Positions 1 to 39,707 of a DNA stretch of 40,153 nt are shown here, in pieces. The notes below the pieces were generated by a model, which saw only the letters and a list, made by a program, of their open reading frames with translations, had not been told where the DNA came from and searched no databases. Source of the stretch: a phage; the sequence record OZ335957.1, one strand, 5' to 3'. A program made the position numbers and the translations under genes. Numbering within the stretch: the first letter of the stretch is position 1; each line of letters opens with the position of its first letter.

Positions 1-1764
1 TTGAGTAAAGATTTAGTGGCTCGTCAGGCGCTAATGACTGCCCGTATGAAGGCAGACTTCGTGTTCTTCCTGTTCGTCCTGTGGAAAGCTCTGTCACTAC
101 CAGTCCCGACTCGATGTCAGATTGACATGGCGAAGAAACTATCGGCTGGGGACAACAGGCGTTTCATCCTACAGGCGTTCCGTGGTATCGGGAAGTCATT
201 CATTACGTGCGCATTCGTGGTATGGAAACTGTGGAACAACCCAGACTTGAAGTTCATGATTGTGTCGGCCTCAAAGGAACGAGCCGATGCAAACTCCATC
301 TTCATCAAGCGAATCATCGACCTCATGCCTCAGCTTCGGGAACTCAAACCTAAGCAGGGGCAGCGAGATGCGGTTATCAGCTTCGACGTTGGACCAGCCA
401 AGCCAGACCACTCACCTTCGGTTAAGTCCGTTGGTATCACTGGTCAGTTGACTGGTAGTCGTGCTGACATCCTGATTGCCGATGACGTGGAGGTTCCGAA
501 CAACTCAGCGACTCAGGCTGCCCGAGACCGTCTGTCAGAGCTTGTGAAAGAGTTCGACGCTATCCTGAAGCCGGGAGGTACAATCATCTATCTGGGTACT
601 CCTCAGAACGAGATGACCTTGTATCGTGAGCTGGAAGGCCGTGGGTACACCACTACTATCTGGCCTGCTCGTTATCCACGCGACAGGAAGGACTGGCAGT
701 CTTACGGCGACCGTCTGGCTCCAATGCTTCAGGCAGAGCTTGAAGAGGACCCTGAGTCATTCTACTGGCGTCCGACTGATGAAGTACGCTTCGATGATAC
801 GGACCTTAAGGAACGTGAGCTGTCATATGGTAAGGCTGGCTTCGCTCTACAGTTCATGCTTAACCCGAACCTGAGTGATGCCGAGAAGTACCCACTGAAG
901 CTCCGTGACCTTATCGTAGCGGACTTGGACCCAGCGTCCAGCCCAATGGTCTACCAATGGTTACCGAACCCTCAGAACAAGCGTGAGGACGTTCCTAACG
1001 TTGGACTCATGGGTGACTCGTACCACACGTATCAGACTGTAGGTTCTGCCTTCAGCTCATACACCCAGAAGATTCTGGTCATTGACCCTAGTGGTCGTGG
1101 TAAGGATGAAACTGGCTATGCGGTACTGTATCAGCTTAATGGCTACATCTTCGCTATGGAAGTTGGTGGTATGCGTGGTGGTTATGAAGACTCTACGCTT
1201 GAAGCACTGGCTAAGATTGGTCGTAAGTGGAAGGTCAACGAATACGTCATTGAGGGTAACTTCGGTGATGGTATGTACCTTGAGCTATTCAAGCCTGTAG
1301 CGGCCCGTATCCATCCTGCGGCTGTAACTGAAGTGAAGAGTAAGGGTCAGAAAGAACTCCGCATCTGTGACGTTCTGGAGCCTATCATGGGATCTCACCG
1401 ACTTATCGTTAACGCTGCTGCTATCGTCCAAGACTACCAGTCGGCCTCTGATAAGGATGGTGTTCGTAACCCTATCTACTCTCTCTTCTACCAGATGACA
1501 CGTATCTCTCGTGAACGTGGAGCCTTGGCACACGATGACCGACTTGATGCGCTGGCTATCGGTGTACAGTTCTTCGTTGAGTCTATGGCTAAGGATGCCA
1601 ACAAGGGCGAACGTGAAGTAACTGAGGAGTGGCTGGAGGAGCAGATGGAGAACCCACGGAAAGGCTTCGAGTCCATCCACACTGAGTTCTGGGACAATGG
1701 GGTCCGGGTAACTCATAATACTGACGACGAGCTGGGACTAGGGTCCTACGTTACGTTCCACTAG
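1..1764 (+). CDS. 19: Terminase large subunit (T7 gp19-like), apparently full length with TTG as first codon at window position 1
   Basis: 587-aa ORF collinear with T7 gp19 (586 aa): [13 protein letters not shown], [60 protein letters not shown] motifs. Confidence 0.9.
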
Positions 1765-1858
1765 CTGAATGAATAACTATGGGTGAAAGCTGCATGAATA
1801 CGCAGTTAGTAACCTATAGTTACTACCAGTCTAACCTACTGTTTTACAAGGAGTTTGG

Positions 1859-1881
1859 ACTTAACTATCACTATAGGGAAG
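1859..1881 (+). promoter_or_regulatory. Phage single-subunit RNAP promoter (right-end, phiOR-like position), +1 G at 1876
   Basis: ACTTAACTATCACTATA GGGAAG; one of 10 copies of the CTATCACTATAGG core; lies between gene 19 and the terminal repeat. Confidence 0.75.
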
Positions 1882-2060
1882 ACCCCCGGTTACTTATAGT
1901 ATTACTGTAGTGAATATACATATGCAGACTTTATGCAAGACCTTAGGAGGCAGACTCCAAGTTCTTACCTAAGGCTTGCACCGATGGAAGGAGGTGATAT
2001 TAATCATAATACCTCCAATACAGATAGTCACAGACCATAGATACAGGAGGTATGTAGCAT

Positions 2061-2219
2061 ATGGCAAAGACCAAAGCTGTACTTAAAGCTCTGGCGACCA
2101 ATCGAGCTACATACAGGTTTCTTGCTGCTGTTCTACTTGCTGCTGGCGTTACTGCTGGAAGTCAGTGGGTCGGGTGGGTCGAGACTCTCATATGTTCTCT
2201 GGTGTCTGAGTGTCGTTAA
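2061..2219 (+). CDS. Small hydrophobic protein (52 aa) in the gene 19.5 position
   Basis: ATG 8 nt after AGGAGGT; one predicted TM-like segment (FLAAVLLAAGVTAG); position after terminase as in T7 gene 19.5. Confidence 0.35.
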   Translation: MAKTKAVLKALATNRATYRFLAAVLLAAGVTAGSQWVGWVETLICSLVSECR

Positions 2220-2453
2220 CTCCGTAATGGTAACAATCAACGAAAGGAGGTAGTATGGACGAAGAGTCTTACGGTTCGTTCTCTGAAGAGGACTATAAGA
2301 CGGAGTGGGAATACGCCCATTGAAGACCTAAGGTCAGTTCATAGCTGACGCTACTCTACTGACCTTAGCTACTGTAGTCAAGGACTTTAGGTAACACCTT
2401 AAGAGAAGCTCACTTAGGGTCATCCTACTTATTGGTCTATCCTAGTGTCGCCT

Positions 2454-2493
2454 GACCTACGGTCCTTGACCTACAGTGGCTGTGGCCTACAGT
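2454..2493 (+). repeat. Short direct repeats (GACCTACGG / GACCTACAGT / GGCCTACAGT) left of the terminal repeat
   Basis: Three related 9-10 bp copies within 40 bp, directly upstream of the presumed genome terminus. Confidence 0.5.
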
Positions 2494-2531
2494 AGTGACG
2501 ATGAGTTTTGGACCAAAAGTTTGAGACCACA

Positions 2532-2725
2532 TCTCACAGTTCAAGAACCTCAAGTCTCCCCATAGGCCCTCTTTAAGTCCAGACCAAAGGCCCTACCCAA
2601 GTCTATCATAAGGTTAGACCGATGGTCAAGACTTCAGGTCAACGATAGGTGGTGACTATGGCTTAGGGAAGGACGATAGGTGGTGACTATAGGTCTGTCT
2701 TTGAGTCTCTATCTGTATCAGACCT
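2532..2725 (+). repeat. Presumed terminal repeat (collapsed to one copy) beginning at the genome left terminus TCTCACAGT; right boundary approximate
   Basis: ATCTCACAGTTCAAGAACC...CCCCATAGGCCCTCTTTAAG matches the conserved left-end sequence of T7/T3 (TCTCA(C/T)AGT...); region is non-coding and flanked by short repeat arrays as in T7. Confidence 0.45.
2642..2690 (+). repeat. Perfect 18-bp direct repeat ACGATAGGTGGTGACTAT x2 (2642-2659 and 2673-2690)
   Basis: Exact duplication read directly from the sequence, 13-bp spacer. Confidence 0.85.
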
Positions 2726-2734
2726 TGAGTCACT

Positions 2735-2820
2735 AACTACAGTCTAACTACCTACAGTCTAACTACCTACAGTCATCGACCATCGGTAATGCTGATACCT
2801 ACAGTCTAAACCTACAGTTA
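2735..2820 (+). repeat. Array of CCTACAGT(C) short repeats including a tandem 15-bp unit TAACTACCTACAGTC x2
   Basis: Copies at 2737, 2751, 2766, 2798, 2811; analogous in position to the ACCTAAAG-type repeats right of the T7 terminal repeat. Confidence 0.6.
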
Positions 2821-3241
2821 ATAGACACAATGGCTATAGACTTAAGGTCTAAGACATGTTAGTCAAAGACTATATCCTCTTACACCATGGGGCCGACGAT
2901 AGCTTAATCAATATTATTTCAAATTACCTATTGACTATAGGTCCAGACTATGGCCTAATAGCTTCCGTCAACACGACACGGCAACAACCGGATAGTGAAG
3001 ACGCCGGTGTCATCCCGGTTAAGTAGACAGCCTGATAAGTCATACGAACAACAGGCAGATGACAATAAGGTAGTAAGGTCGCTGAGGGCTTCCACTTCAG
3101 CAGGTCGGAAAGGTCCTAAAACCTAACGAGAGTCTGACCAGCTCGCCAAGTCTGCCACTGAGGTGGATAACCAGAGGAGGCAACGTGTCGCCCACTGAGG
3201 GGCTACAGCTCACAGTTTAGGTTAACAGGCTAAACAAATGC

Positions 3242-3271
3242 TTGACAAGATGTAACGATAAGATGTAATAT
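3242..3271 (+). promoter_or_regulatory. Host sigma70-type early promoter (T7 A3-like)
   Basis: -35 TTGACA (3242-3247), 18-bp spacer, -10 TAATAT (3266-3271); flanking sequence resembles the T7 A2/A3 region (..TTGACAA..GTAA..; downstream GCTCTTTAACAATCTGG). Confidence 0.6.
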
Positions 3272-3449
3272 TTACCACATCGAAACAACGGTGATGACCA
3301 ACACTGAAATGGTCTACCTGAAGTCCTCTGACTGAAGGGAATGCTCTTTAACAATCTGGATAAACTCTTAATGTGCGCCGATAGCGACTAACTACAGGGC
3401 CTTTGAGCCTACATCTGAAGGCCCTGACTGATAGTCACTAACTTAACGG

Positions 3450-3704
3450 ATGGACACTATGAAACACTTAAGCACAATCACTAATCGCAATGAAGTATTC
3501 GTGAACACTAAAGGTTATGCGTGGATTCAGCTTAAAGAGATGAGAGGAGCGCGTCACCGTGTGGTAGTGCGCAAGGTATCAAGCAAGCAGTTCAGCAACT
3601 ACAGCGTCGATACTGTGCGTATAGACAACGAGACATACCTGATAGACTCGCAGATAACCGTGAGTACTACAGCGGGCGTCTCAGCTCCTTATTTCGCTAA
3701 CTGA
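3450..3704 (+). CDS. Hypothetical early protein (84 aa), first ORF after the early promoters
   Basis: ORF in early leader position; weak RBS; alternative start at 3459; no recognisable motif. Confidence 0.4.
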   Translation: MDTMKHLSTITNRNEVFVNTKGYAWIQLKEMRGARHRVVVRKVSSKQFSNYSVDTVRIDNETYLIDSQITVSTTAGVSAPYFAN

Positions 3705-3791
3705 GAGTGATTAACTACAGGTCGTTAGACTGATAGCGGCCTGACTGATAGTCACTAACATACACATAATTAACTTTGAGAGGATATAACT

Positions 3792-4295
3792 ATGGAACGT
3801 AATGCTAACGCATACTATGAGCTGCTGGCTGCAACAGTTGAGGCATTTATCGAGCGTATTCAGTACGACCACCTGACTAAAGATGATGACTACAGCGATG
3901 CGCTGCATGAGGTAGTAGACGGTCAGGTTCCACACTATTACCACGAGATTTTTACGGTGATGGCTGCTGATGGTATAGACCACGAGTTCGAAGACTCTGG
4001 GATGATGCCTGAAACCAAGGACGTAACGCGTATACTACAAGCTCGCATCTATGAGGCGCTTTATAACGATGTGTCTAATAGCTTGGATGTAGTCTGGTTT
4101 GAGGATGAAGAGGCAGACGAAGAGGATGAATATTGGGTAGTTGACGCTAAAACAGGCGCAATAATTGTGCAAGCTGTAGCTCTTGAGGTCGCTACTGCAT
4201 GTGCCAAGGTCAACTATGCAATAGGTCGCCACCTGAAGGTGGAAGACATCAATGATAACGTAGTGTTCGATCCTGCGGCTGAGGACTGCGAGTGA
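3792..4295 (+). CDS. ocr: Ocr-like anti-restriction protein (T7 gp0.3 DNA mimic) with about 50-aa C-terminal extension
   Basis: [43 protein letters not shown] closely matches T7 Ocr; acidic tract DEEADEEDE; RBS GAGAGG. Confidence 0.85.
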
Positions 4296-4444
4296 TGGTA
4301 ACTTATGGTATCTGCCAGCACCACGTCGCCAACGCCCGGCTTATGGTCAAGACCGGGCGGTTAACCCATGATGAGACTATGCGTCTCCTGAAGGTGGTCT
4401 ACAAGCGGCGCAAGCGTATTCACGACAGTTTGCACGCTGAGTGA
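4295..4444 (+). CDS. Hypothetical small early protein (49 aa)
   Basis: ATG overlaps Ocr stop (TGATG); basic C-terminus; below the ORF-track size cutoff. Confidence 0.3.
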   Translation: MVTYGICQHHVANARLMVKTGRLTHDETMRLLKVVYKRRKRIHDSLHAE

Positions 4445-4509
4445 TAAACGAGAGGTCACGACTGATAGGTGGCCTCAAAGATTATCACTTAAATTGATAG
4501 AGGTTAACT

Positions 4510-4599
4510 ATGAGTGTTGGACATTGGGTATGCTTATCTCCGGTCATCTTTCTGATAGCTTGGGGGATATACGACTGTATTAAACGGAAATCACTATGA
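4510..4599 (+). CDS. Hypothetical small hydrophobic peptide (29 aa)
   Basis: ATG after AGAGGT; stop overlaps next start (ATGA); hydrophobic core. Confidence 0.2.
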   Translation: MSVGHWVCLSPVIFLIAWGIYDCIKRKSL

Positions 4600-4793
4600 G
4601 TCTTGCACTATTGATAGCCATAGGCTATGGACTTATCGCATACGTGCTTGTGAGAGACATCAACAAAGCGCGTAAAGTCTACAAATTCAACTATGTACGT
4701 CTGGGCCGCTGGACTGTACGTCAACCTAACGGACGATTCATGCGCAACTTAGCGAACGTCTGGGATATAGCAACTATTGGGAGCAAACTGTAA
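4596..4793 (+). CDS. Hypothetical early membrane protein (65 aa)
   Basis: N-terminal hydrophobic helix LALLIAIGYGLIAYVLV; translationally coupled to flanking ORFs. Confidence 0.45.
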   Translation: MSLALLIAIGYGLIAYVLVRDINKARKVYKFNYVRLGRWTVRQPNGRFMRNLANVWDIATIGSKL

Positions 4794-5053
4794 TGAAAAC
4801 CGTATACATTAACAAACCATCTAGCCATAGCCGTGTAGAGCAAATAGAGCGTGACATGTTCTTACATCGCCGCATGAGGGCTGAGGGCCATAAGTACGAA
4901 CTGATGAGTCTGGCGTTTGGTGGACGACCGATCACTGACGATGGTAAACTTTTAGTCTCAGGCTGGAAGGCGATAGACCAACGGTCAACCATCAAGCACA
5001 CGACTCACGGTGACTTCAGCCATCTCCACGCTAACCCACTGATATGCAAGTGA
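4793..5053 (+). CDS. Hypothetical early protein (86 aa)
   Basis: TAATG coupling with upstream ORF; occupies the region where T7 carries gene 0.7, but far too small to be a kinase. Confidence 0.5.
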   Translation: MKTVYINKPSSHSRVEQIERDMFLHRRMRAEGHKYELMSLAFGGRPITDDGKLLVSGWKAIDQRSTIKHTTHGDFSHLHANPLICK

Positions 5054-5058
5054 TTATG

Positions 5059-5081
5059 ACTTAACTATCACTATAGGACTC
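5059..5081 (+). promoter_or_regulatory. Phage RNAP promoter immediately upstream of the RNAP gene, +1 G at 5076
   Basis: ACTTAACTATCACTATA GGACTC; 20-mer identical to the copy at 1859. Confidence 0.75.
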
Positions 5082-5150
5082 AAGGTCTAAGACTCCAAGT
5101 GAAAGACCAAAGAGACTTTAAGTGAAAGACTAATAACAAGGACTTTAAGT

Positions 5151-7832
5151 ATGAGCGTCATCTCTATTGATAAACACGACTTCTCTGATGTGTCTAACGC
5201 CATTGAGCCGTTTAACCTGCTGGCTGACCACTACGGGCAAGACCTTGCAGTCAAACAGCTTCAGCTTGAGCATGAGGCCTACACTGAAGGCGAGCGACGT
5301 TTCATCAAGAACCTTGAGCGTCAGACCGAGCGAGGGGAACTGGCAGACAATCAGGTCGCCAAGCCTTTGATGCAGACTCTGGTTCCTAAGATTGCGCAAG
5401 CCGTCAAGGAGTGGCACGAAGGTCCAGACGGGAAGCTGTCAACCTCACGTCCGAGCGTAGCGTTCACCATGTTAAGCACTGAAGAGAAGGCCGTCAAGGA
5501 CCGCTCTCTTCGCATCTCCTGCGAGTCTGCTGCGGTTATCATACTGAAGGTCATCCTCTCCAAGCTGGTCAAGCCTGAAGGTATACCGATTACACCGATG
5601 GCCTCCGCGATAGGTCGCACACTTGAGGATGAAATCCGATTCGGTCGCATTCGTGACAAGGAGAAGGAGCACTTCAAGAAGGCGATAGCTGATAACCTGA
5701 ACAAGAGAGCCGGGGCATCATACAAGAAAGCCTACATGCAAGCGGTCGAGACATCCATGCTGGAGCAAGGCCAACTAGAAGATGCGTGGGGAACTTGGAG
5801 TCCGACCGAGGCTGTCCACGTTGGAATCAAGATGCTGGAGATTGTCATACAGTCAACACAACTGGTCGAGCTTAAGCGTTACGGTGCTGGCAATGCAACG
5901 GCTGACGTTGAGATGGTCCACCTGTCAGACTTCTGGGTCAAGAAGATGGCACAACGCGGCTTCAGCCTTGCGGGTATCGCTCCAGTCTACCAACCTTGCG
6001 TAGTTCCACCTAAGCCGTGGACTGGTGTCGTAGGCGGTGGGTACTGGGCCAAAGGTCGCAGACCATTACCACTGATTCGCTTAGGGTCTAAGTCTGCGGT
6101 GGCACGTTACGAAGACGTGTATATGCCTGAAGTCTATGACGCTGTTAACATCATCCAGAATACACCTTGGAAAGTGAACAAGAAGGTTCTGGACGTGGTG
6201 AACATGGTCGAGAAGTTGAACAACACGCCTATTGATGACATCCCTCAGATGGAGCCACTGAAGCCTGAAGAATATGCGGGTGAGACTGAAGAGGAACTCA
6301 AGGCGTGGAAGAAAGCGGCTGCTGGTATCTATCGCCGCGAGAAGGCCAGACAGTCACGCAGATTGTCGCTGAGCTTTATCGTTAACCAAGCGAACAAGTT
6401 CTCTCAGTTCAAGGCCATCTGGTTCCCGTACAACATGGACTGGCGCGGTCGCGTCTACGCTGTGCCGATGTTCAACCCTCAGGGTAACGACATGCAAAAG
6501 GGTCTACTGACTCTGGCAGTCGGTAAGCCTATTGGTGCTGATGGTTTCAAATGGCTGAAGGTCCACGGTGCAAACTGTGCGGGTGTCGATAAAGTCACCT
6601 TCGAGGAGCGCATCAAGTGGGTGGAAGACAACCACGACAACATCATGGCTGCTGCTAAGGCACCGATGGATAGCATTGAGTGGTGGGGCAAGTTAGACTC
6701 TCCTTTCTGCTTCCTTGCGTTCTGCTTCGAGTATGCTGGCGTGATGCACCACGGATTGTCTTACTCCTGCTCGCTGCCGATAGCTTTCGATGGGTCCTGC
6801 TCTGGGATTCAGCACTTCAGCGCTATGCTTCGTGACCACATCGGTGGACATGCAGTAAACCTGACGCCTTCCGGTAAGGTCCAAGACATCTACCGCATCG
6901 TTTCTGACCGCATTGAGGAAGAGCTTAAAGTCCTGCTGGTTAACGGCACGGACAACGAGATGGTAACTCACGAGGACAAGAAAACTGGTGAGATTACCGA
7001 GCGTCTCAAGCTGGGGACACGAGAGCTGGCCCGTCAGTGGCTGACCTACGGTATGTCACGCAAGGTTACTAAGCGCTCAGTCATGACTCTGGCCTACGGG
7101 TCGAAAGAGTACGGCTTCGCAGACCAAGTTTACGAGGACATCGTGATGCCCGCGATTGACTCAGGGTCTGGCGCTATGTTCACTGAACCAAGCCAAGCAT
7201 CTCGCTTCATGGCTAAGATGATTTGGGAAGCTGTGAGTGTGACCGTAGTTGCTGCGGTTGACGCGATGAAATGGCTTCAGGGTGCTGCCAAGCTGCTGGC
7301 GGCTGAAGTGAAGGACAAGAAGACTGGCGAAATCCTGAAGCCTTGCCTTCCGGTACACTGGGTCACACCTGATGGGTTCCCGGTCTGGCAGGAATACCGC
7401 AAGAAGGATACCACTCGTCTGAATCTGATGTTCTTAGGGTCATTCAACCTTCAGCCTACCGTCAACAAAGGCACGAAGAAAGAGCTGGATAAGCACAAGC
7501 AGGAGTCAGGCATTAGCCCGAACTTCGTCCACTCACAAGATGGTAGCCACCTCCGCAAGACTGTAGTCCACACGCATCGCAAGTATGGCGTGATGTCATT
7601 CGCAGTGATTCATGATAGCTTCGGGACAATCCCGGCTGACGCTGAATATCTGTTCCGTGGTGTCCGTGAGACGATGGTCGAGACCTACCGCGACAACGAT
7701 GTGCTGCTTGACTTCTACGAGCAGTTTGAATACCAGCTTCACGAGAGCCAGCGCAATAAGTTGCCAGAGCTTCCGAAGAAAGGTAAACTGAATATCGAAG
7801 ACATCTTGTCTTCAGACTTTGCATTCGCTTAA
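5151..7832 (+). CDS. 1: Single-subunit DNA-directed RNA polymerase (T7 gp1-like)
   Basis: 893 aa; collinear with T7 RNAP: PFNLLADHYG, CVVPPKPWTG, WFPYNMDWRGRVYAV, FCFLAFCFEY, IHDSFGT, C-terminal FAFA. Confidence 0.98.
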   Translation: MSVISIDKHDFSDVSNAIEPFNLLADHYGQDLAVKQLQLEHEAYTEGERRFIKNLERQTERGELADNQVAKPLMQTLVPKIAQAVKEWHEGPDGKLSTSRPSVAFTMLSTEEKAVKDRSLRISCESAAVIILKVILSKLVKPEGIPITPMASAIGRTLEDEIRFGRIRDKEKEHFKKAIADNLNKRAGASYKKAYMQAVETSMLEQGQLEDAWGTWSPTEAVHVGIKMLEIVIQSTQLVELKRYGAGNATADVEMVHLSDFWVKKMAQRGFSLAGIAPVYQPCVVPPKPWTGVVGGGYWAKGRRPLPLIRLGSKSAVARYEDVYMPEVYDAVNIIQNTPWKVNKKVLDVVNMVEKLNNTPIDDIPQMEPLKPEEYAGETEEELKAWKKAAAGIYRREKARQSRRLSLSFIVNQANKFSQFKAIWFPYNMDWRGRVYAVPMFNPQGNDMQKGLLTLAVGKPIGADGFKWLKVHGANCAGVDKVTFEERIKWVEDNHDNIMAAAKAPMDSIEWWGKLDSPFCFLAFCFEYAGVMHHGLSYSCSLPIAFDGSCSGIQHFSAMLRDHIGGHAVNLTPSGKVQDIYRIVSDRIEEELKVLLVNGTDNEMVTHEDKKTGEITERLKLGTRELARQWLTYGMSRKVTKRSVMTLAYGSKEYGFADQVYEDIVMPAIDSGSGAMFTEPSQASRFMAKMIWEAVSVTVVAAVDAMKWLQGAAKLLAAEVKDKKTGEILKPCLPVHWVTPDGFPVWQEYRKKDTTRLNLMFLGSFNLQPTVNKGTKKELDKHKQESGISPNFVHSQDGSHLRKTVVHTHRKYGVMSFAVIHDSFGTIPADAEYLFRGVRETMVETYRDNDVLLDFYEQFEYQLHESQRNKLPELPKKGKLNIEDILSSDFAFA

Positions 7833-7846
7833 CAGGAGAGAGAGCT

Positions 7847-8062
7847 ATGAAATATGCACACAAGCATACTGGCGTTAATGGTGGGACTCAAATCGTGACC
7901 GTAACAGAACACAACGGCAAGGGTCTGGTGAAGACCACGGTCATCCCTACCGAGATGTCCAAGCAGCTTAACATCCCGTTCAAGACTCTTGTAGATCTGG
8001 TCGAGTCCAGCCACGAGAAGTACCTGAAGGACGCAGTGTCAAAACTGGAGCAGACCAAATGA
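7847..8062 (+). CDS. Hypothetical protein (71 aa) between RNAP gene and downstream promoter
   Basis: RBS AGGAGAGAGAG; no recognised motif. Confidence 0.5.
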   Translation: MKYAHKHTGVNGGTQIVTVTEHNGKGLVKTTVIPTEMSKQLNIPFKTLVDLVESSHEKYLKDAVSKLEQTK

Positions 8063-8136
8063 CAGACCTACAGTTGCTGGCCTTGTGGCTGGGAGCAATT
8101 GCAGTATTCACTTTAATCCAACGCAGAAGAGGTTAA
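8059..8136 (+). CDS. Hypothetical small hydrophobic peptide (25 aa)
   Basis: ATG overlapping upstream stop; LLALWLGAIAVFTLI helix; stop abuts promoter. Confidence 0.2.
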   Translation: MTDLQLLALWLGAIAVFTLIQRRRG

Positions 8137-8159
8137 CCTAAACTATCACTATAGGATTA
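8137..8159 (+). promoter_or_regulatory. Phage RNAP promoter (phi1.1-like position), +1 G at 8154
   Basis: CCTAAACTATCACTATA GGATTA. Confidence 0.8.
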
Positions 8160-8200
8160 GACTCAAGGTCATGACTCAAAGTCGTGGCCTTCATGATTAA
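8158..8200 (+). promoter_or_regulatory. Conserved hairpin element, copy 1 (RNase III site-like, R1.1 position)
   Basis: TAGACTCAAGGTCAT..GTGGCCTTCATGATTA; stem AAGGTCA/TGGCCTT conserved in three copies (8158, 15524, 39611). Confidence 0.4.
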
Positions 8201-8232
8201 CCCTAAATAAACACTACTGGAGATTTAACCGT

Positions 8233-15355: not shown

Positions 15356-15520
15356 GTGTTAAAGAAACTTAAAGCTCGATATCACATGTTCATGTACAAA
15401 TGGTGGAGCGATGAAGCAACCTGCCTGTCGAACATTCTGGGAGACCAGCGGTTCAACTCTGAGGCATGGAAGAAAGCTAACCGGAAGTTCATGTATCACT
15501 TCTTGCGTACAGACTTCTAG
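15356..15520 (+). CDS. Hypothetical small protein (54 aa, GTG start)
   Basis: GGAGG 7 nt upstream of GTG; 3' part of ORF-track frame 15041..15520 lying downstream of primase stop. Confidence 0.3.
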   Translation: MLKKLKARYHMFMYKWWSDEATCLSNILGDQRFNSEAWKKANRKFMYHFLRTDF

Positions 15521-15523
15521 GTC

Positions 15524-15566
15524 TAGACTCAAGGTCATTCATAGCGAGTGGCCTTTATGATTAGAC
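15524..15566 (+). promoter_or_regulatory. Conserved hairpin element, copy 2 (RNase III site-like, R4.7 position)
   Basis: TAGACTCAAGGTCATTCATAGCGAGTGGCCTTTATGATTAGACT. Confidence 0.4.
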
Positions 15567-15584
15567 TAAAGCGGAGGATTAACC

Positions 15585-39346: not shown

Positions 39347-39606
39347 CGCAGATGGACTTAGAGAAGTTCCTCTTGATGCTAGATACTGAACGTGCTCGAC
39401 TCATGCTGCAAGACCTGCGGGATGACACTAAGCGTTCACCTCAGCTTTACAACGCCATTGAGAAGCTACTGGCTCGTCACAACTTCGTGCTAAGCAAGGT
39501 GTCTGTAGACGAGAAGACTCTGGCTGATATGGAGGCCCTGAACGCAGAGTACGATAAGGTTCTTTCAGCGACTGAGGATAATGACACAGGGTATGGTGTT
39601 CAATAA
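39343..39606 (+). CDS. 18: Terminase small subunit (T7 gp18-like)
   Basis: 87 aa; LLMLDTERARLMLQDL...RSPQLYNAIEKLLARH matches T7 gp18. Confidence 0.88.
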   Translation: MTQMDLEKFLLMLDTERARLMLQDLRDDTKRSPQLYNAIEKLLARHNFVLSKVSVDEKTLADMEALNAEYDKVLSATEDNDTGYGVQ

Positions 39607-39610
39607 GTGT

Positions 39611-39655
39611 TAGACTCAAGGTCATTACTATATGTAGTGGCCTTTATGGTTAACA
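39611..39655 (+). promoter_or_regulatory. Conserved hairpin element, copy 3 (RNase III site-like, R18.5 position)
   Basis: TAGACTCAAGGTCATTACTATATGTAGTGGCCTTTATGGTTAAC. Confidence 0.4.
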
Positions 39656-39707
39656 CTAACTAGTGGAGGAGACTCTACGTGAAATCTGATAAACCGGGAG
39701 GGCAACT

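What the first reader, a model, noticed from the sequence alone, without database searches (positions are those of the whole stretch)
3395..3760. Extra ORF ahead of the Ocr gene, with a duplicated 20-bp leader and a hairpin
The 20-mer CCTGACTGATAGTCACTAAC occurs just upstream of the 84-aa ORF (3423-3442) and again upstream of the Ocr-like gene (3739-3758). A 7-bp-stem hairpin (CAGGGCC/GGCCCTG, 3395-3426) precedes the first copy. This looks like a duplicated processing or translation-initiation leader, so the 84-aa ORF may have been inserted ahead of the original first early gene.
Basis: seen in the sequence. Interest (0 to 1): 0.45.

Follow-up and report, generated by a model that had tools for sequence, protein, structure and literature searches.

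The report
Paired RNase III hairpins bracketing gene 0.2
The repeated 20-mer is the shared 3' arm of two T7-type RNase III processing hairpins that bracket a small accessory early gene (K1F gene 0.2) ahead of the anti-restriction gene ocr in a K1F-like phage. This is an ordinary feature of T7-like phages, but these hairpins also mark the points where single-gene cassettes are gained, lost and reordered among relatives.

Summary
The window is a circularly permuted Kayfunavirus (K1F-like, T7 family) genome. It is not a free-standing leader. It is the 3' arm of two ~60-nt bipartite hairpins (A 3380-3444, B 3703-3761), and a third lies at 4437-4494.

A covariance model built only from Kayfunavirus hairpins finds four of T3's five curated RNase III stem-loops at E<=4e-4 and the fifth only weakly (E 0.61). 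It likewise hits the positions I recall for T7's five mapped sites. The hairpins are therefore T7-group RNase III sites. Inferred cuts at 3429|3430, 3746|3747 and 4479|4480 would release a 317-nt gene 0.2 mRNA and a 733-nt ocr-0.35 mRNA, both starting GAUAGUCACUAAC.

The ORF (probably 81 aa, start 3459) is K1F gp0.2. It is conserved under purifying selection, its function is unknown, and it also occurs in unrelated phages.

Relatives show A|ocr, A|0.2|B|ocr, A|0.2|B|X|B|ocr and A|X|B|0.2|B|ocr, and homology breakpoints pile up at the hairpin edges. The feature is an unannotated member of a known kind and of modest interest. Cleavage and translation are untested.

The parts
3242..3271 (+). Sigma-70-type early promoter (TTGACA, 18 nt, TAATAT) that would drive the early transcript carrying the hairpins
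   Evidence: 10 of 12 consensus match, the best in 2600-5200. This is a consensus match only.
3380..3444 (+). Hairpin A, the predicted RNase III site ahead of gene 0.2 (I call it R0.2). It contains 20-mer copy 1 (3423-3442). Inferred cut between 3429 and 3430.
   Evidence: fold, z -4.1; model R1, 73 bits, E 3e-15; cut position transferred from T7 model position 45.
3459..3704 (+). Gene 0.2 (81 aa; an alternative upstream ATG at 3450 gives 84 aa). Small conserved protein of unknown function, with an all-beta structure prediction.
   Evidence: phrog_10124, 8.7e-40; K1F gp0.2 annotation; 119 phage records; 25 invariant columns in the alignment; dN/dS 0.18-0.46; pLDDT 67.
3703..3761 (+). Hairpin B, the predicted RNase III site ahead of ocr (R0.3 equivalent). 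It overlaps the last two bases of the gene 0.2 stop codon and contains 20-mer copy 2 (3740-3759). Inferred cut between 3746 and 3747.
   Evidence: z -4.2; 76 bits, E 5e-16; plus strand -23.3 vs minus strand -10.7 kcal/mol, 3 G.U pairs.
3792..4295 (+). Ocr-like anti-restriction gene, long form (167 aa). Residues 8-94 match the Ocr domain. The C-terminal ~55 aa are a variable extension.
   Evidence: PF08684, 1.3e-29; phrog_2568; short 110-114 aa forms break at about 4113-4126 and resume at 4281.
4295..4444 (+). Gene 0.35 (49 aa), predicted to be co-transcribed with ocr on the same processed mRNA, like T7 0.3-0.4
   Evidence: phrog_5058; K1F gp0.35.
4437..4494 (+). Hairpin C, the predicted RNase III site closing the ocr-0.35 mRNA (T7 R0.5 equivalent). 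Inferred cut between 4479 and 4480.
   Evidence: z -3.5; 66 bits, E 1e-13.
8150..8209 (+). Further member of the same hairpin family, after gene 1 and overlapping a phage promoter at 8139-8157 (T7 R1.1-like position)
   Evidence: (31 bits, E 3e-5).
15517..15572 (+). Further family member, lying between a 566-aa ORF and a 723-aa ORF that by size and order I take to be the primase-helicase and DNA polymerase genes (not checked by homology); T7 R4.7-like position
   Evidence: (23.6 bits, E 0.002).
39603..39662 (+). Further family member, after an 87-aa ORF near the right end of the genome (T7 R18.5-like position)
   Evidence: (39.5 bits, E 3e-7).

Best explanation
The two 20-mers are the 3' arms of two paralogous T7-type RNase III processing hairpins on the early, host-polymerase transcript of a K1F-like phage.

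Each hairpin has a lower stem of about 8 bp, an asymmetric internal loop and an upper stem of about 10 bp. By homology with T7, host RNase III would cut once, on the 3' side of the internal loop. That leaves the hairpin as a protective 3' end on the upstream RNA and creates a new 5' end, GAUAGUCACUAAC, for the downstream RNA.

The polycistronic transcript from the promoter at 3242-3271 would thus be cut into three pieces: a leader; a 317-nt monocistronic gene 0.2 mRNA (3430-3746); and a 733-nt ocr-0.35 mRNA (3747-4479).

At the DNA level, the same ~60-bp repeats serve as homology patches. Through them, single-gene cassettes (an ORF plus its downstream hairpin) are inserted, deleted and reordered among related phages. 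Gene 0.2 is one such accessory cassette sitting in front of ocr.

What is shown: the repeat, the structure, its covariation, its homology to known RNase III sites, the cassette polymorphism and the breakpoint clustering. What is inferred: actual cleavage, the exact cut positions, the stabilising role, the recombination mechanism and the function of gp0.2.
For: - Repeat beyond chance.
- Both copies fold into the same bipartite hairpin as T7 R0.3.
- Across 15 Kayfunavirus hairpins, 97.5% of cells are paired against at most 49% for slid controls, and 7 pairs have compensatory changes.
- Model R1, built without T7 or T3 sequences, places its five best plus-strand hits in T7 1-6500 at 851-905, 1426-1483, 3099-3153, 5846-5902 and 6411-6457.
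- In T3 the model recovers the curated 'RNase III recognition site' stem-loops R0.3, R0.5, R1 and R1.1 at E<=4e-4, and gives only a weak partial hit inside R1.3 (E 0.61).
- The T7 cleavage coordinates 890, 1468, 3138 and 5887 (Dunn & Studier 1983, recalled from memory) all fall on model position 45.
- All six window hits are on the transcribed strand. Five of the six fold much better as plus-strand RNA because of G.U pairs.
- Internal loops restricting RNase III to one cut, which leaves a protective 3' hairpin, is established (PMC1540722).
- Cassette evidence: maps; three perfect copies around two cassettes in PM129; reversed cassette order in Vec13.
- IME177's single hairpin aligns to both A and B of the window.
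- 62 of 169 interior alignment ends lie within 10 nt of a hairpin against 18 expected, with modes at 3442, 3740 and 3759.
- A Klebsiella T7-like phage also has gp0.2 bracketed by two model hits.
Against: - No experimental data exist for this phage: cleavage, cut positions and translation of gene 0.2 are all untested.
- T7 grows without RNase III (PMC6938266), so processing may matter little for fitness.
- K1F-like phages appear to lack the T7 0.7 kinase that boosts RNase III activity.
- The breakpoint statistic treats related genomes as independent, so the p-values are overstated.
- Breakpoints would also pile up at any conserved intergenic block flanked by variable genes, so clustering alone does not prove that recombination occurs within the hairpins.
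- Hairpin A folds equally well on both strands.
- The Shine-Dalgarno sequence of gene 0.2 is weak (GGAUGGA, 4-nt spacing).
Confidence: 0.8

Rival explanations
1. The hairpins act mainly at the DNA level, as palindromes that form cruciforms or single-strand hairpins (replication or recombination signals, or targets or decoys for host defences). The RNA-level resemblance to RNase III sites would then be secondary.
For: T7 RNase III-site palindromes act as DNA signals that trigger the DdmABC/Lamassu defence (PMC11707656). Hairpin A folds equally well on both strands. Recombination breakpoints map to the hairpins.
Against: All six family members are on the transcribed strand, with model scores of 24-76 bits against 9-16 bits for the opposite strand. 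Two to four G.U pairs per hairpin make the minus strand much weaker for B, C and the two distal sites at 39603 and 15517, and somewhat weaker for the site at 8150. Compensatory changes include G.U intermediates. The model recovers sites in T3 that are curated as RNA processing sites.
Confidence: 0.08
2. The repeat is a promoter or a terminator: either a phage-RNA-polymerase or sigma-70 promoter duplicated before each gene, or an intrinsic terminator or attenuator after each gene.
For: A weak sigma-70-like match overlaps copy 2 (CTGACT, 18 nt, CATAAT at 3741-3770, 9 of 12). The 3' arm (AGTCACTAAC) loosely resembles the core of T7-type promoters.
Against: The phage promoter consensus (TAAACTATCACTATAGGA) occurs 10 times in the window and never at the 20-mer. 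The 20-mer has no further match within 3 mismatches. The number of sigma-70-like matches equals the shuffle expectation, 5 against 4.2, and no terminator-like site (no U tract) is found in 2600-5200.
Confidence: 0.04
3. A recent local tandem duplication with no function of its own. The 20-mer identity would simply reflect a young duplication that happened to trap an ORF, and the ORF would be non-coding.
For: Perfect identity over 20 nt; the 5' arms are also similar.
Against: The apical halves of A and B are quite different, so the duplication is not young. The arrangement is conserved in dozens of genomes, including a Klebsiella T7-like lineage whose gp0.2 is 67% identical. The ORF shows purifying selection, has 25 invariant columns in the alignment of diverged homologues, and has homologues in unrelated phage families.
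Confidence: 0.03

Closest known systems
RNase III processing sites of coliphages T7 and T3 (R0.3, R0.5, R1, R1.1; Dunn & Studier 1983; curated as stem_loop features in NC_003298)
   Same: Same bipartite hairpin with an asymmetric internal loop. Same conserved motifs (5' ..ACU.AAGG.., 3' ..CCU...UGAU.AUCACU). Same intergenic positions on the transcribed strand, including one about 35 nt before gene 0.3/ocr. They are recovered by one covariance model.
   Different: There are two tandem sites ahead of ocr instead of one, enclosing an extra gene that T7 and T3 lack. The 3' arms of the two sites are identical over 20 nt. The model finds no site directly upstream of gene 1 (no R1 equivalent). The sites are not annotated in the K1F records and are absent from Rfam. 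Cleavage is not demonstrated for this phage group.
PeSL (promoter-early stem-loop) mobile regulatory cassettes of T4-type phages (Arbiol et al. 2010, PMC2839356; PMC4122927)
   Same: Short repeated regulatory stem-loop motifs flank small non-essential ORFs in a hypervariable early region. Insertions, deletions, replacements and reorderings between close relatives have their junctions at the motifs.
   Different: PeSLs combine a sigma-70 promoter with a terminator stem-loop. The elements here have neither and are RNA processing sites. Mini-circle intermediates are not tested. In the ~150-kb myovirus phiWec188, the gp0.2 homologue is flanked by a repeated promoter-plus-GC-stem-loop motif that does resemble a PeSL.
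Gene 0.2 of coliphage K1F (CAJ29341, record AM084414)
   Same: 95% identical protein at the same position, between the early promoter region and gene 0.3.
   Different: It is only a name: no function, family or structure is attached, and the other K1F record (DQ111067) does not annotate it at all.
Phage accessory regions holding counter-defence genes next to ocr (Silas et al., bioRxiv 10.1101/2023.04.06.535777)
   Same: A hypervariable cluster of small, horizontally mobile genes adjacent to a known anti-restriction gene.
   Different: That work does not mention RNase III sites, K1F or this gene. A counter-defence role for gp0.2 is only guilt by association.

Membership tests
T7-group RNase III processing sites | About 50-65 nt hairpin with lower and upper helices separated by an asymmetric internal loop | tested here: met
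   A, B and C share the dot-bracket architecture of T7 R0.3; 19 pairs, 97.5% of cells paired.
T7-group RNase III processing sites | Structure maintained by compensatory substitutions across homologues | tested here: met
   7 pairs with changes on both sides; covariation score 0.433 against 0.186 for shuffles (0 of 500 reach it); slid controls at most 0.14.
T7-group RNase III processing sites | Homology in sequence and structure to experimentally defined or curated sites | tested here: met
   Model R1 was built from Kayfunavirus hairpins only. It hits T3's curated R0.3, R0.5, R1 and R1.1 (E 5e-7 to 4e-4), with a weak partial hit in R1.3. It also hits T7 at the five expected positions.
T7-group RNase III processing sites | Intergenic position on the transcribed strand, downstream of the early promoters and between translation units | tested here: met
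   All six hits are on the plus strand and sit in gaps between ORFs or overlap their ends by only a few bases.
T7-group RNase III processing sites | Single cleavage by host RNase III within the internal loop | not testable with these tools
   The cut position is only transferred by alignment (model position 45). It needs rnc+/rnc- end mapping or an in vitro assay.
T7-group RNase III processing sites | No antideterminant base pairs in the proximal and distal boxes (Zhang & Nicholson rules) | not tested
   The rules are described in PMC1540722. I did not map the box positions onto these internal-loop substrates.
PeSL-type mobile regulatory cassettes | Repeated motif flanking accessory ORFs, with indel and replacement junctions at the motif | tested here: met
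   cassette maps, and 62 of 169 alignment ends at hairpins against 18 expected.
PeSL-type mobile regulatory cassettes | The motif consists of a strong sigma-70 promoter plus a terminator stem-loop | tested here: not met
   no terminator-like site and no above-chance promoter at the hairpins. So this is not a PeSL, although it may work like one in recombination.
PeSL-type mobile regulatory cassettes | Excised mini-circles formed by recombination between neighbouring motifs | not testable with these tools
   Needs outward-facing PCR or long-read data from infected cells.
K1F gp0.2 / PHROG 10124 | Full-length sequence similarity to the family | tested here: met
   8.7e-40, residues 4-84 against profile 1-77; 95% identity to K1F gp0.2.
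Ocr DNA mimic (PF08684) | Match above the Pfam gathering score | tested here: met
   103 bits against a cutoff of 25, residues 8-94. The C-terminal ~55 aa lie outside the domain.

The most novel reading that the evidence does not exclude
In K1F-like and other T7-like phages, the RNase III hairpins may double as portable recombination junctions. Each accessory early gene would travel as an 'ORF plus 3' hairpin' cassette. On insertion, the cassette brings its own mRNA-stabilising end and regenerates an identical 5' leader for the next gene. That would give a PeSL-like or integron-like exchange system for first-injected genes. On this reading gp0.2, which enters and is expressed even before Ocr and is shared with N4-like and rV5-like phages, would be an unrecognised counter-defence or host-takeover factor.
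Probability: 0.4. Interest if true: 0.55.

Novelty: new member of a known kind. Interest (0 to 1): 0.33.

Why it matters
RNase III punctuation of T7 early mRNA is textbook, so the core finding is ordinary. It does correct the annotation of a therapeutically used phage group: the K1F records carry no RNase III sites, and one of them omits gene 0.2.

Two things have modest wider value.

First, the comparative maps show that these processing hairpins are the seams along which the first-injected genes are shuffled. If confirmed, that gives a simple rule for finding accessory, probably anti-defence, genes in T7-like phages. It also gives natural, expression-neutral landing sites for engineering payload genes into K1F-type therapeutic phages.

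Second, gp0.2 is a conserved, horizontally mobile protein positioned ahead of Ocr with no known fold or function, which makes it a reasonable candidate for counter-defence screening.

T7-type RNase III palindromes are also known triggers of Lamassu/DdmABC, so carrying extra copies may have a cost.

Tried and rejected
- **Rfam**: no family matches in 2500-5300 at E<=1. T7 RNase III sites are not in Rfam.
- **T7 GenBank records** V01146 and NC_001604: the tool shows no RNase III features, so I used the curated T3 record instead.
- **K1F genome paper**: not held in the library, so I could not check whether it described these sites.
- **Literature on gp0.2**: no paper among the hits listed used the term.
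- **Function of gp0.2**: Pfam gives only a sub-threshold DUF2113 hit (15 bits against a cutoff of 27). An exhaustive profile search found only 17 clusters. The AlphaFold model has pLDDT 67. Foldseek against PDB and BFVD gave nothing at E<=0.001. Function remains open.
- **Promoter and terminator readings**: rejected.
- **Chance or young-duplication reading**: rejected.
- **IMG/VR scan for the exact 19-mer**: only 17 loci. It was useful for maps but too small for statistics.
- **Pfam on alternative cassette genes**: no family for the 174-aa, 92-aa, 62-aa and 58-aa proteins, and only a weak helix-turn-helix signal for the 115-aa one.
- **Origin of the 167-bp insert at 3075-3241**: not from E. 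coli.

Full report
**What the window is.** The 40,153-bp window is a circularly permuted genome of a K1F-like phage (genus Kayfunavirus, Autographiviridae). Region 3200-4300 is 98.6% identical to Escherichia phage 216Ecol046PP and 92% identical to K1F. The large terminase gene lies at 1-1764. The early region spans about 2900-5150 and the phage RNA polymerase gene is at 5151-7832.

**Checking the observation.**
- The 20-mer CCTGACTGATAGTCACTAAC occurs exactly twice, at 3423-3442 and 3740-3759.
- No further match exists at up to 3 mismatches, and none in 100 shuffles.
- The 7-bp stem at 3395-3401/3420-3426 is real.
- The ORF 3450-3704 is real, and the next gene is Ocr-like (PF08684, 1.3e-29).
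- The description is incomplete. Each 20-mer is the 3' arm of a ~60-nt bipartite hairpin with a lower stem, an asymmetric internal loop and an upper stem: 3380-3444 (-26.5 kcal/mol, z -4.1) and 3703-3761 (-23.9 kcal/mol, z -4.2).
- The 5' arms are also related.
- A third hairpin of the same design lies at 4437-4494, after the ocr-0.35 gene pair.

**What the hairpins are.**
- T7's R0.3 region upstream of gene 0.3 folds into the same dot-bracket architecture, and its 3' arm is similar: UGAUAUUCACUAA against UGAUAGUCACUAA here.
- I aligned 15 hairpins from the window and six Kayfunavirus relatives. For the proposed 19-pair structure, 97.5% of cells are standard pairs, against at most 49% when the partners are slid. 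Seven pairs carry compensatory changes, and the covariation score is 0.433 against 0.186 in shuffles.
- A covariance model built from these sequences alone was then tested on phages that were not used to build it.
- In T3, its four best plus-strand hits are the four stem-loops that the RefSeq record curates as 'RNase III recognition site' R0.5, R0.3, R1.1 and R1. A weak partial fifth hit (E 0.61) lies inside R1.3.
- In T7 1-6500, the five best plus-strand hits are 851-905, 1426-1483, 3099-3153, 5846-5902 and 6411-6457.
- The cleavage coordinates I recall from Dunn & Studier 1983 are 890, 1468, 3138 and 5887. They come from memory and could not be checked in a held paper. All four fall on the same model position, U45, just before a conserved GAU. 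That is a strong internal consistency check.
- In the window the model finds six plus-strand sites: the three above plus 8150-8209, 15517-15572 and 39603-39662. Their positions parallel T7's R1.1, R4.7 and R18.5.
- The opposite strand scores only 9-16 bits. Five of the six hairpins fold much better as plus-strand RNA because they contain 2-4 G.U pairs. This points to function in the transcript rather than in DNA.
- Rfam has no family for these sites.

**Mechanism.**
- One good sigma-70 promoter (TTGACA, 18 nt, TAATAT at 3242-3271) lies about 110 nt upstream of hairpin A. No terminator-like site occurs in 2600-5200.
- By homology, host RNase III would cut once on the 3' side of each internal loop, at 3429|3430, 3746|3747 and 4479|4480.
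- Internal loops are known to restrict RNase III to one cut, which leaves a 3' hairpin that protects the upstream RNA from 3'-5' exonucleases (PMC1540722).
- The predicted products are a leader RNA, a 317-nt gene 0.2 mRNA (exactly the repeat period) and a 733-nt ocr-0.35 mRNA. The last parallels T7's 0.3-0.4 mRNA.
- Both mRNAs would begin with GAUAGUCACUAAC.
- The 20-mer is not a ribosome-binding element. The Shine-Dalgarno regions downstream differ: GGAUGGA for gene 0.2 and GAGAGGA for ocr.

**The ORF.**
- It is K1F gene 0.2, at 95% identity. It is annotated in AM084414 but not in DQ111067. It belongs to phrog_10124, of unknown function.
- Most annotations and the PHROG alignment start at the second ATG (3459), giving 81 aa.
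- It is a real gene. There are 25 invariant columns in the alignment across homologues down to 67% identity. dN/dS is 0.18-0.46 against five relatives.
- The family is small: 17 clusters among 1.8 billion representatives.
- The AlphaFold model is a small all-beta protein of moderate confidence (pLDDT 67), with no significant structural neighbour in PDB or BFVD.
- Homologues occur outside Kayfunavirus: Klebsiella T7-like phages (67%), phiKT, Phapecoctavirus myoviruses of about 150 kb (71%), and the left-end early region of N4-like Gamaleyaviruses (35-50%). It therefore behaves as a horizontally mobile early gene.

**Was it inserted?** Cassette maps of 17 loci (hairpins) show these arrangements:

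| Arrangement | Phages or loci |
|---|---|
| A \| ocr | IME177, SH3, Ro45lw and three IMG/VR genomes |
| A \| 0.2 \| B \| ocr | the window, K1F, 216Ecol046PP, L023 |
| A \| 0.2 \| B \| X(92 aa) \| B \| ocr | PM129 |
| A \| X(92 aa) \| B \| 0.2 \| B \| ocr (same two cassettes, opposite order) | Vec13 |
| A \| Y(58 aa) \| B \| ocr | L022 |
| A \| 0.2 \| B \| non-ocr genes | U8, Cronobacter B1 |

- PM129 has three perfect copies of the 19-mer.
- IME177's single hairpin aligns with both A and B of the window.
- Of 169 interior ends of blastn alignments between the window's early region and 25 relatives, 62 lie within 10 nt of a hairpin, against 18 expected. The modes are at 3442, 3740 and 3759, which are the edges of the two 20-mers.
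- Genomes are related, so the nominal p-values overstate significance.
- In a Klebsiella T7-like phage, gp0.2 is again bracketed by two model hits.
- In the myovirus phiWec188, the gene is instead flanked by a repeated promoter-plus-GC-stem-loop motif.
- So gene 0.2 is an accessory cassette bounded by hairpins. Whether this particular lineage gained it, or its relatives lost it, cannot be decided here.

**Comparison with known systems.**
- As RNA elements, the hairpins pass every membership test for T7-group RNase III sites that sequence analysis allows. Cleavage itself is untested.
- As recombination seams, they work like the PeSL cassettes of T4-type phages (PMC2839356). They are not PeSLs, because they lack both the promoter and the terminator.
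- T7 RNase III-site palindromes are also known DNA triggers of the DdmABC/Lamassu defence (PMC11707656). That is a possible cost of carrying extra copies.
- Variable regions next to ocr are known to hold counter-defence genes (bioRxiv 10.1101/2023.04.06.535777), but nothing links gp0.2 to such a role yet.

**Verdict.** The feature is a pair of unannotated but conventional RNase III sites around a known, function-less accessory gene, which makes it a new member of a known kind. The hairpin-bounded cassette shuffling and the position of gp0.2 ahead of Ocr add moderate interest.

Noticed in passing
window 3075-3241: A 167-bp non-coding segment immediately upstream of the -35 box of the early promoter is absent from most Kayfunavirus relatives: 15 alignments end at 3074 and 14 resume at 3242. 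It is conserved in 70 T7-like phage records (Klebsiella, Salmonella, Escherichia, Yersinia, Erwinia) and has no match in E. coli genomes. It contains a repeated CCACTGAGG motif, is unannotated everywhere, and has no Rfam hit. Phage 216Ecol046PP carries it twice.
   Followed up: partly
window 4114-4280: The Ocr-like protein is a long form (167 aa). The C-terminal ~55 residues lie outside the Pfam Ocr domain and correspond to a 167-bp indel. Relatives with short Ocr (110-114 aa) break at about 4113-4126 and resume at 4281. The function of the extension is unknown.
   Followed up: partly
window 4510-4599: A 29-aa hydrophobic ORF (MSVGHWVCLSPVIFLIAWGIYDCIKRKSL), with a GAGG Shine-Dalgarno sequence, follows hairpin C and overlaps the start of the next gene by ATGA. 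It replaces K1F gene 0.36 (55 aa, also hydrophobic); alignments break at about 4510 and resume at about 4594.
   Followed up: no
window 4495-8149: The model finds no RNase III-type hairpin directly upstream of the RNA polymerase gene (no T7/T3 R1 equivalent). A phage-promoter consensus sits there instead, at 5061-5079.
   Followed up: no
window 8139-8209: A phage promoter (8139-8157) overlaps the 5' arm of an RNase III-type hairpin (8150-8209), resembling the T7 phi1.1A / R1.1 arrangement.
   Followed up: no
L004 (PM129) 2141-2205: PM129 has an extra type A hairpin (one mismatch in the 19-mer, which weakens the lower stem) at the position where other phages have the type C hairpin. This indicates that hairpin types themselves get exchanged between slots.
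   Followed up: partly
L032 (phiWec188) 1425-1500 and 1760-1830: In this ~150-kb Phapecoctavirus, the gp0.2 homologue (71% identical) is flanked on both sides by a repeated motif of TTGACA-type promoter plus GGGCGGC...GCCGCC stem-loop. This resembles the PeSL cassettes of T4-type phages.
   Followed up: no
L009 2534-3058, L011 1310-1834, L010 2757-3281: In U8, ZG49 and Cronobacter phage B1, a conserved 174-aa protein with no Pfam match occupies the slot where ocr normally sits, directly after a hairpin. It is a candidate alternative anti-restriction or anti-defence gene.
   Followed up: partly
L010 2140-2227, L012 819-906 (also L014, L017, L020, L029): In several relatives, hairpin A carries an apical insertion of about 23 nt (88 nt instead of 65 nt) while keeping the lower stem, the internal loop and the 20-mer.
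   Followed up: no
GenBank records MZ398247, LT594300, OR594182/OR594184: The Ocr-like gene or its neighbours are annotated as 'protein kinase' or 'N4-like RNA polymerase' in some records. This conflicts with the Pfam Ocr match and looks like annotation error.
   Followed up: no
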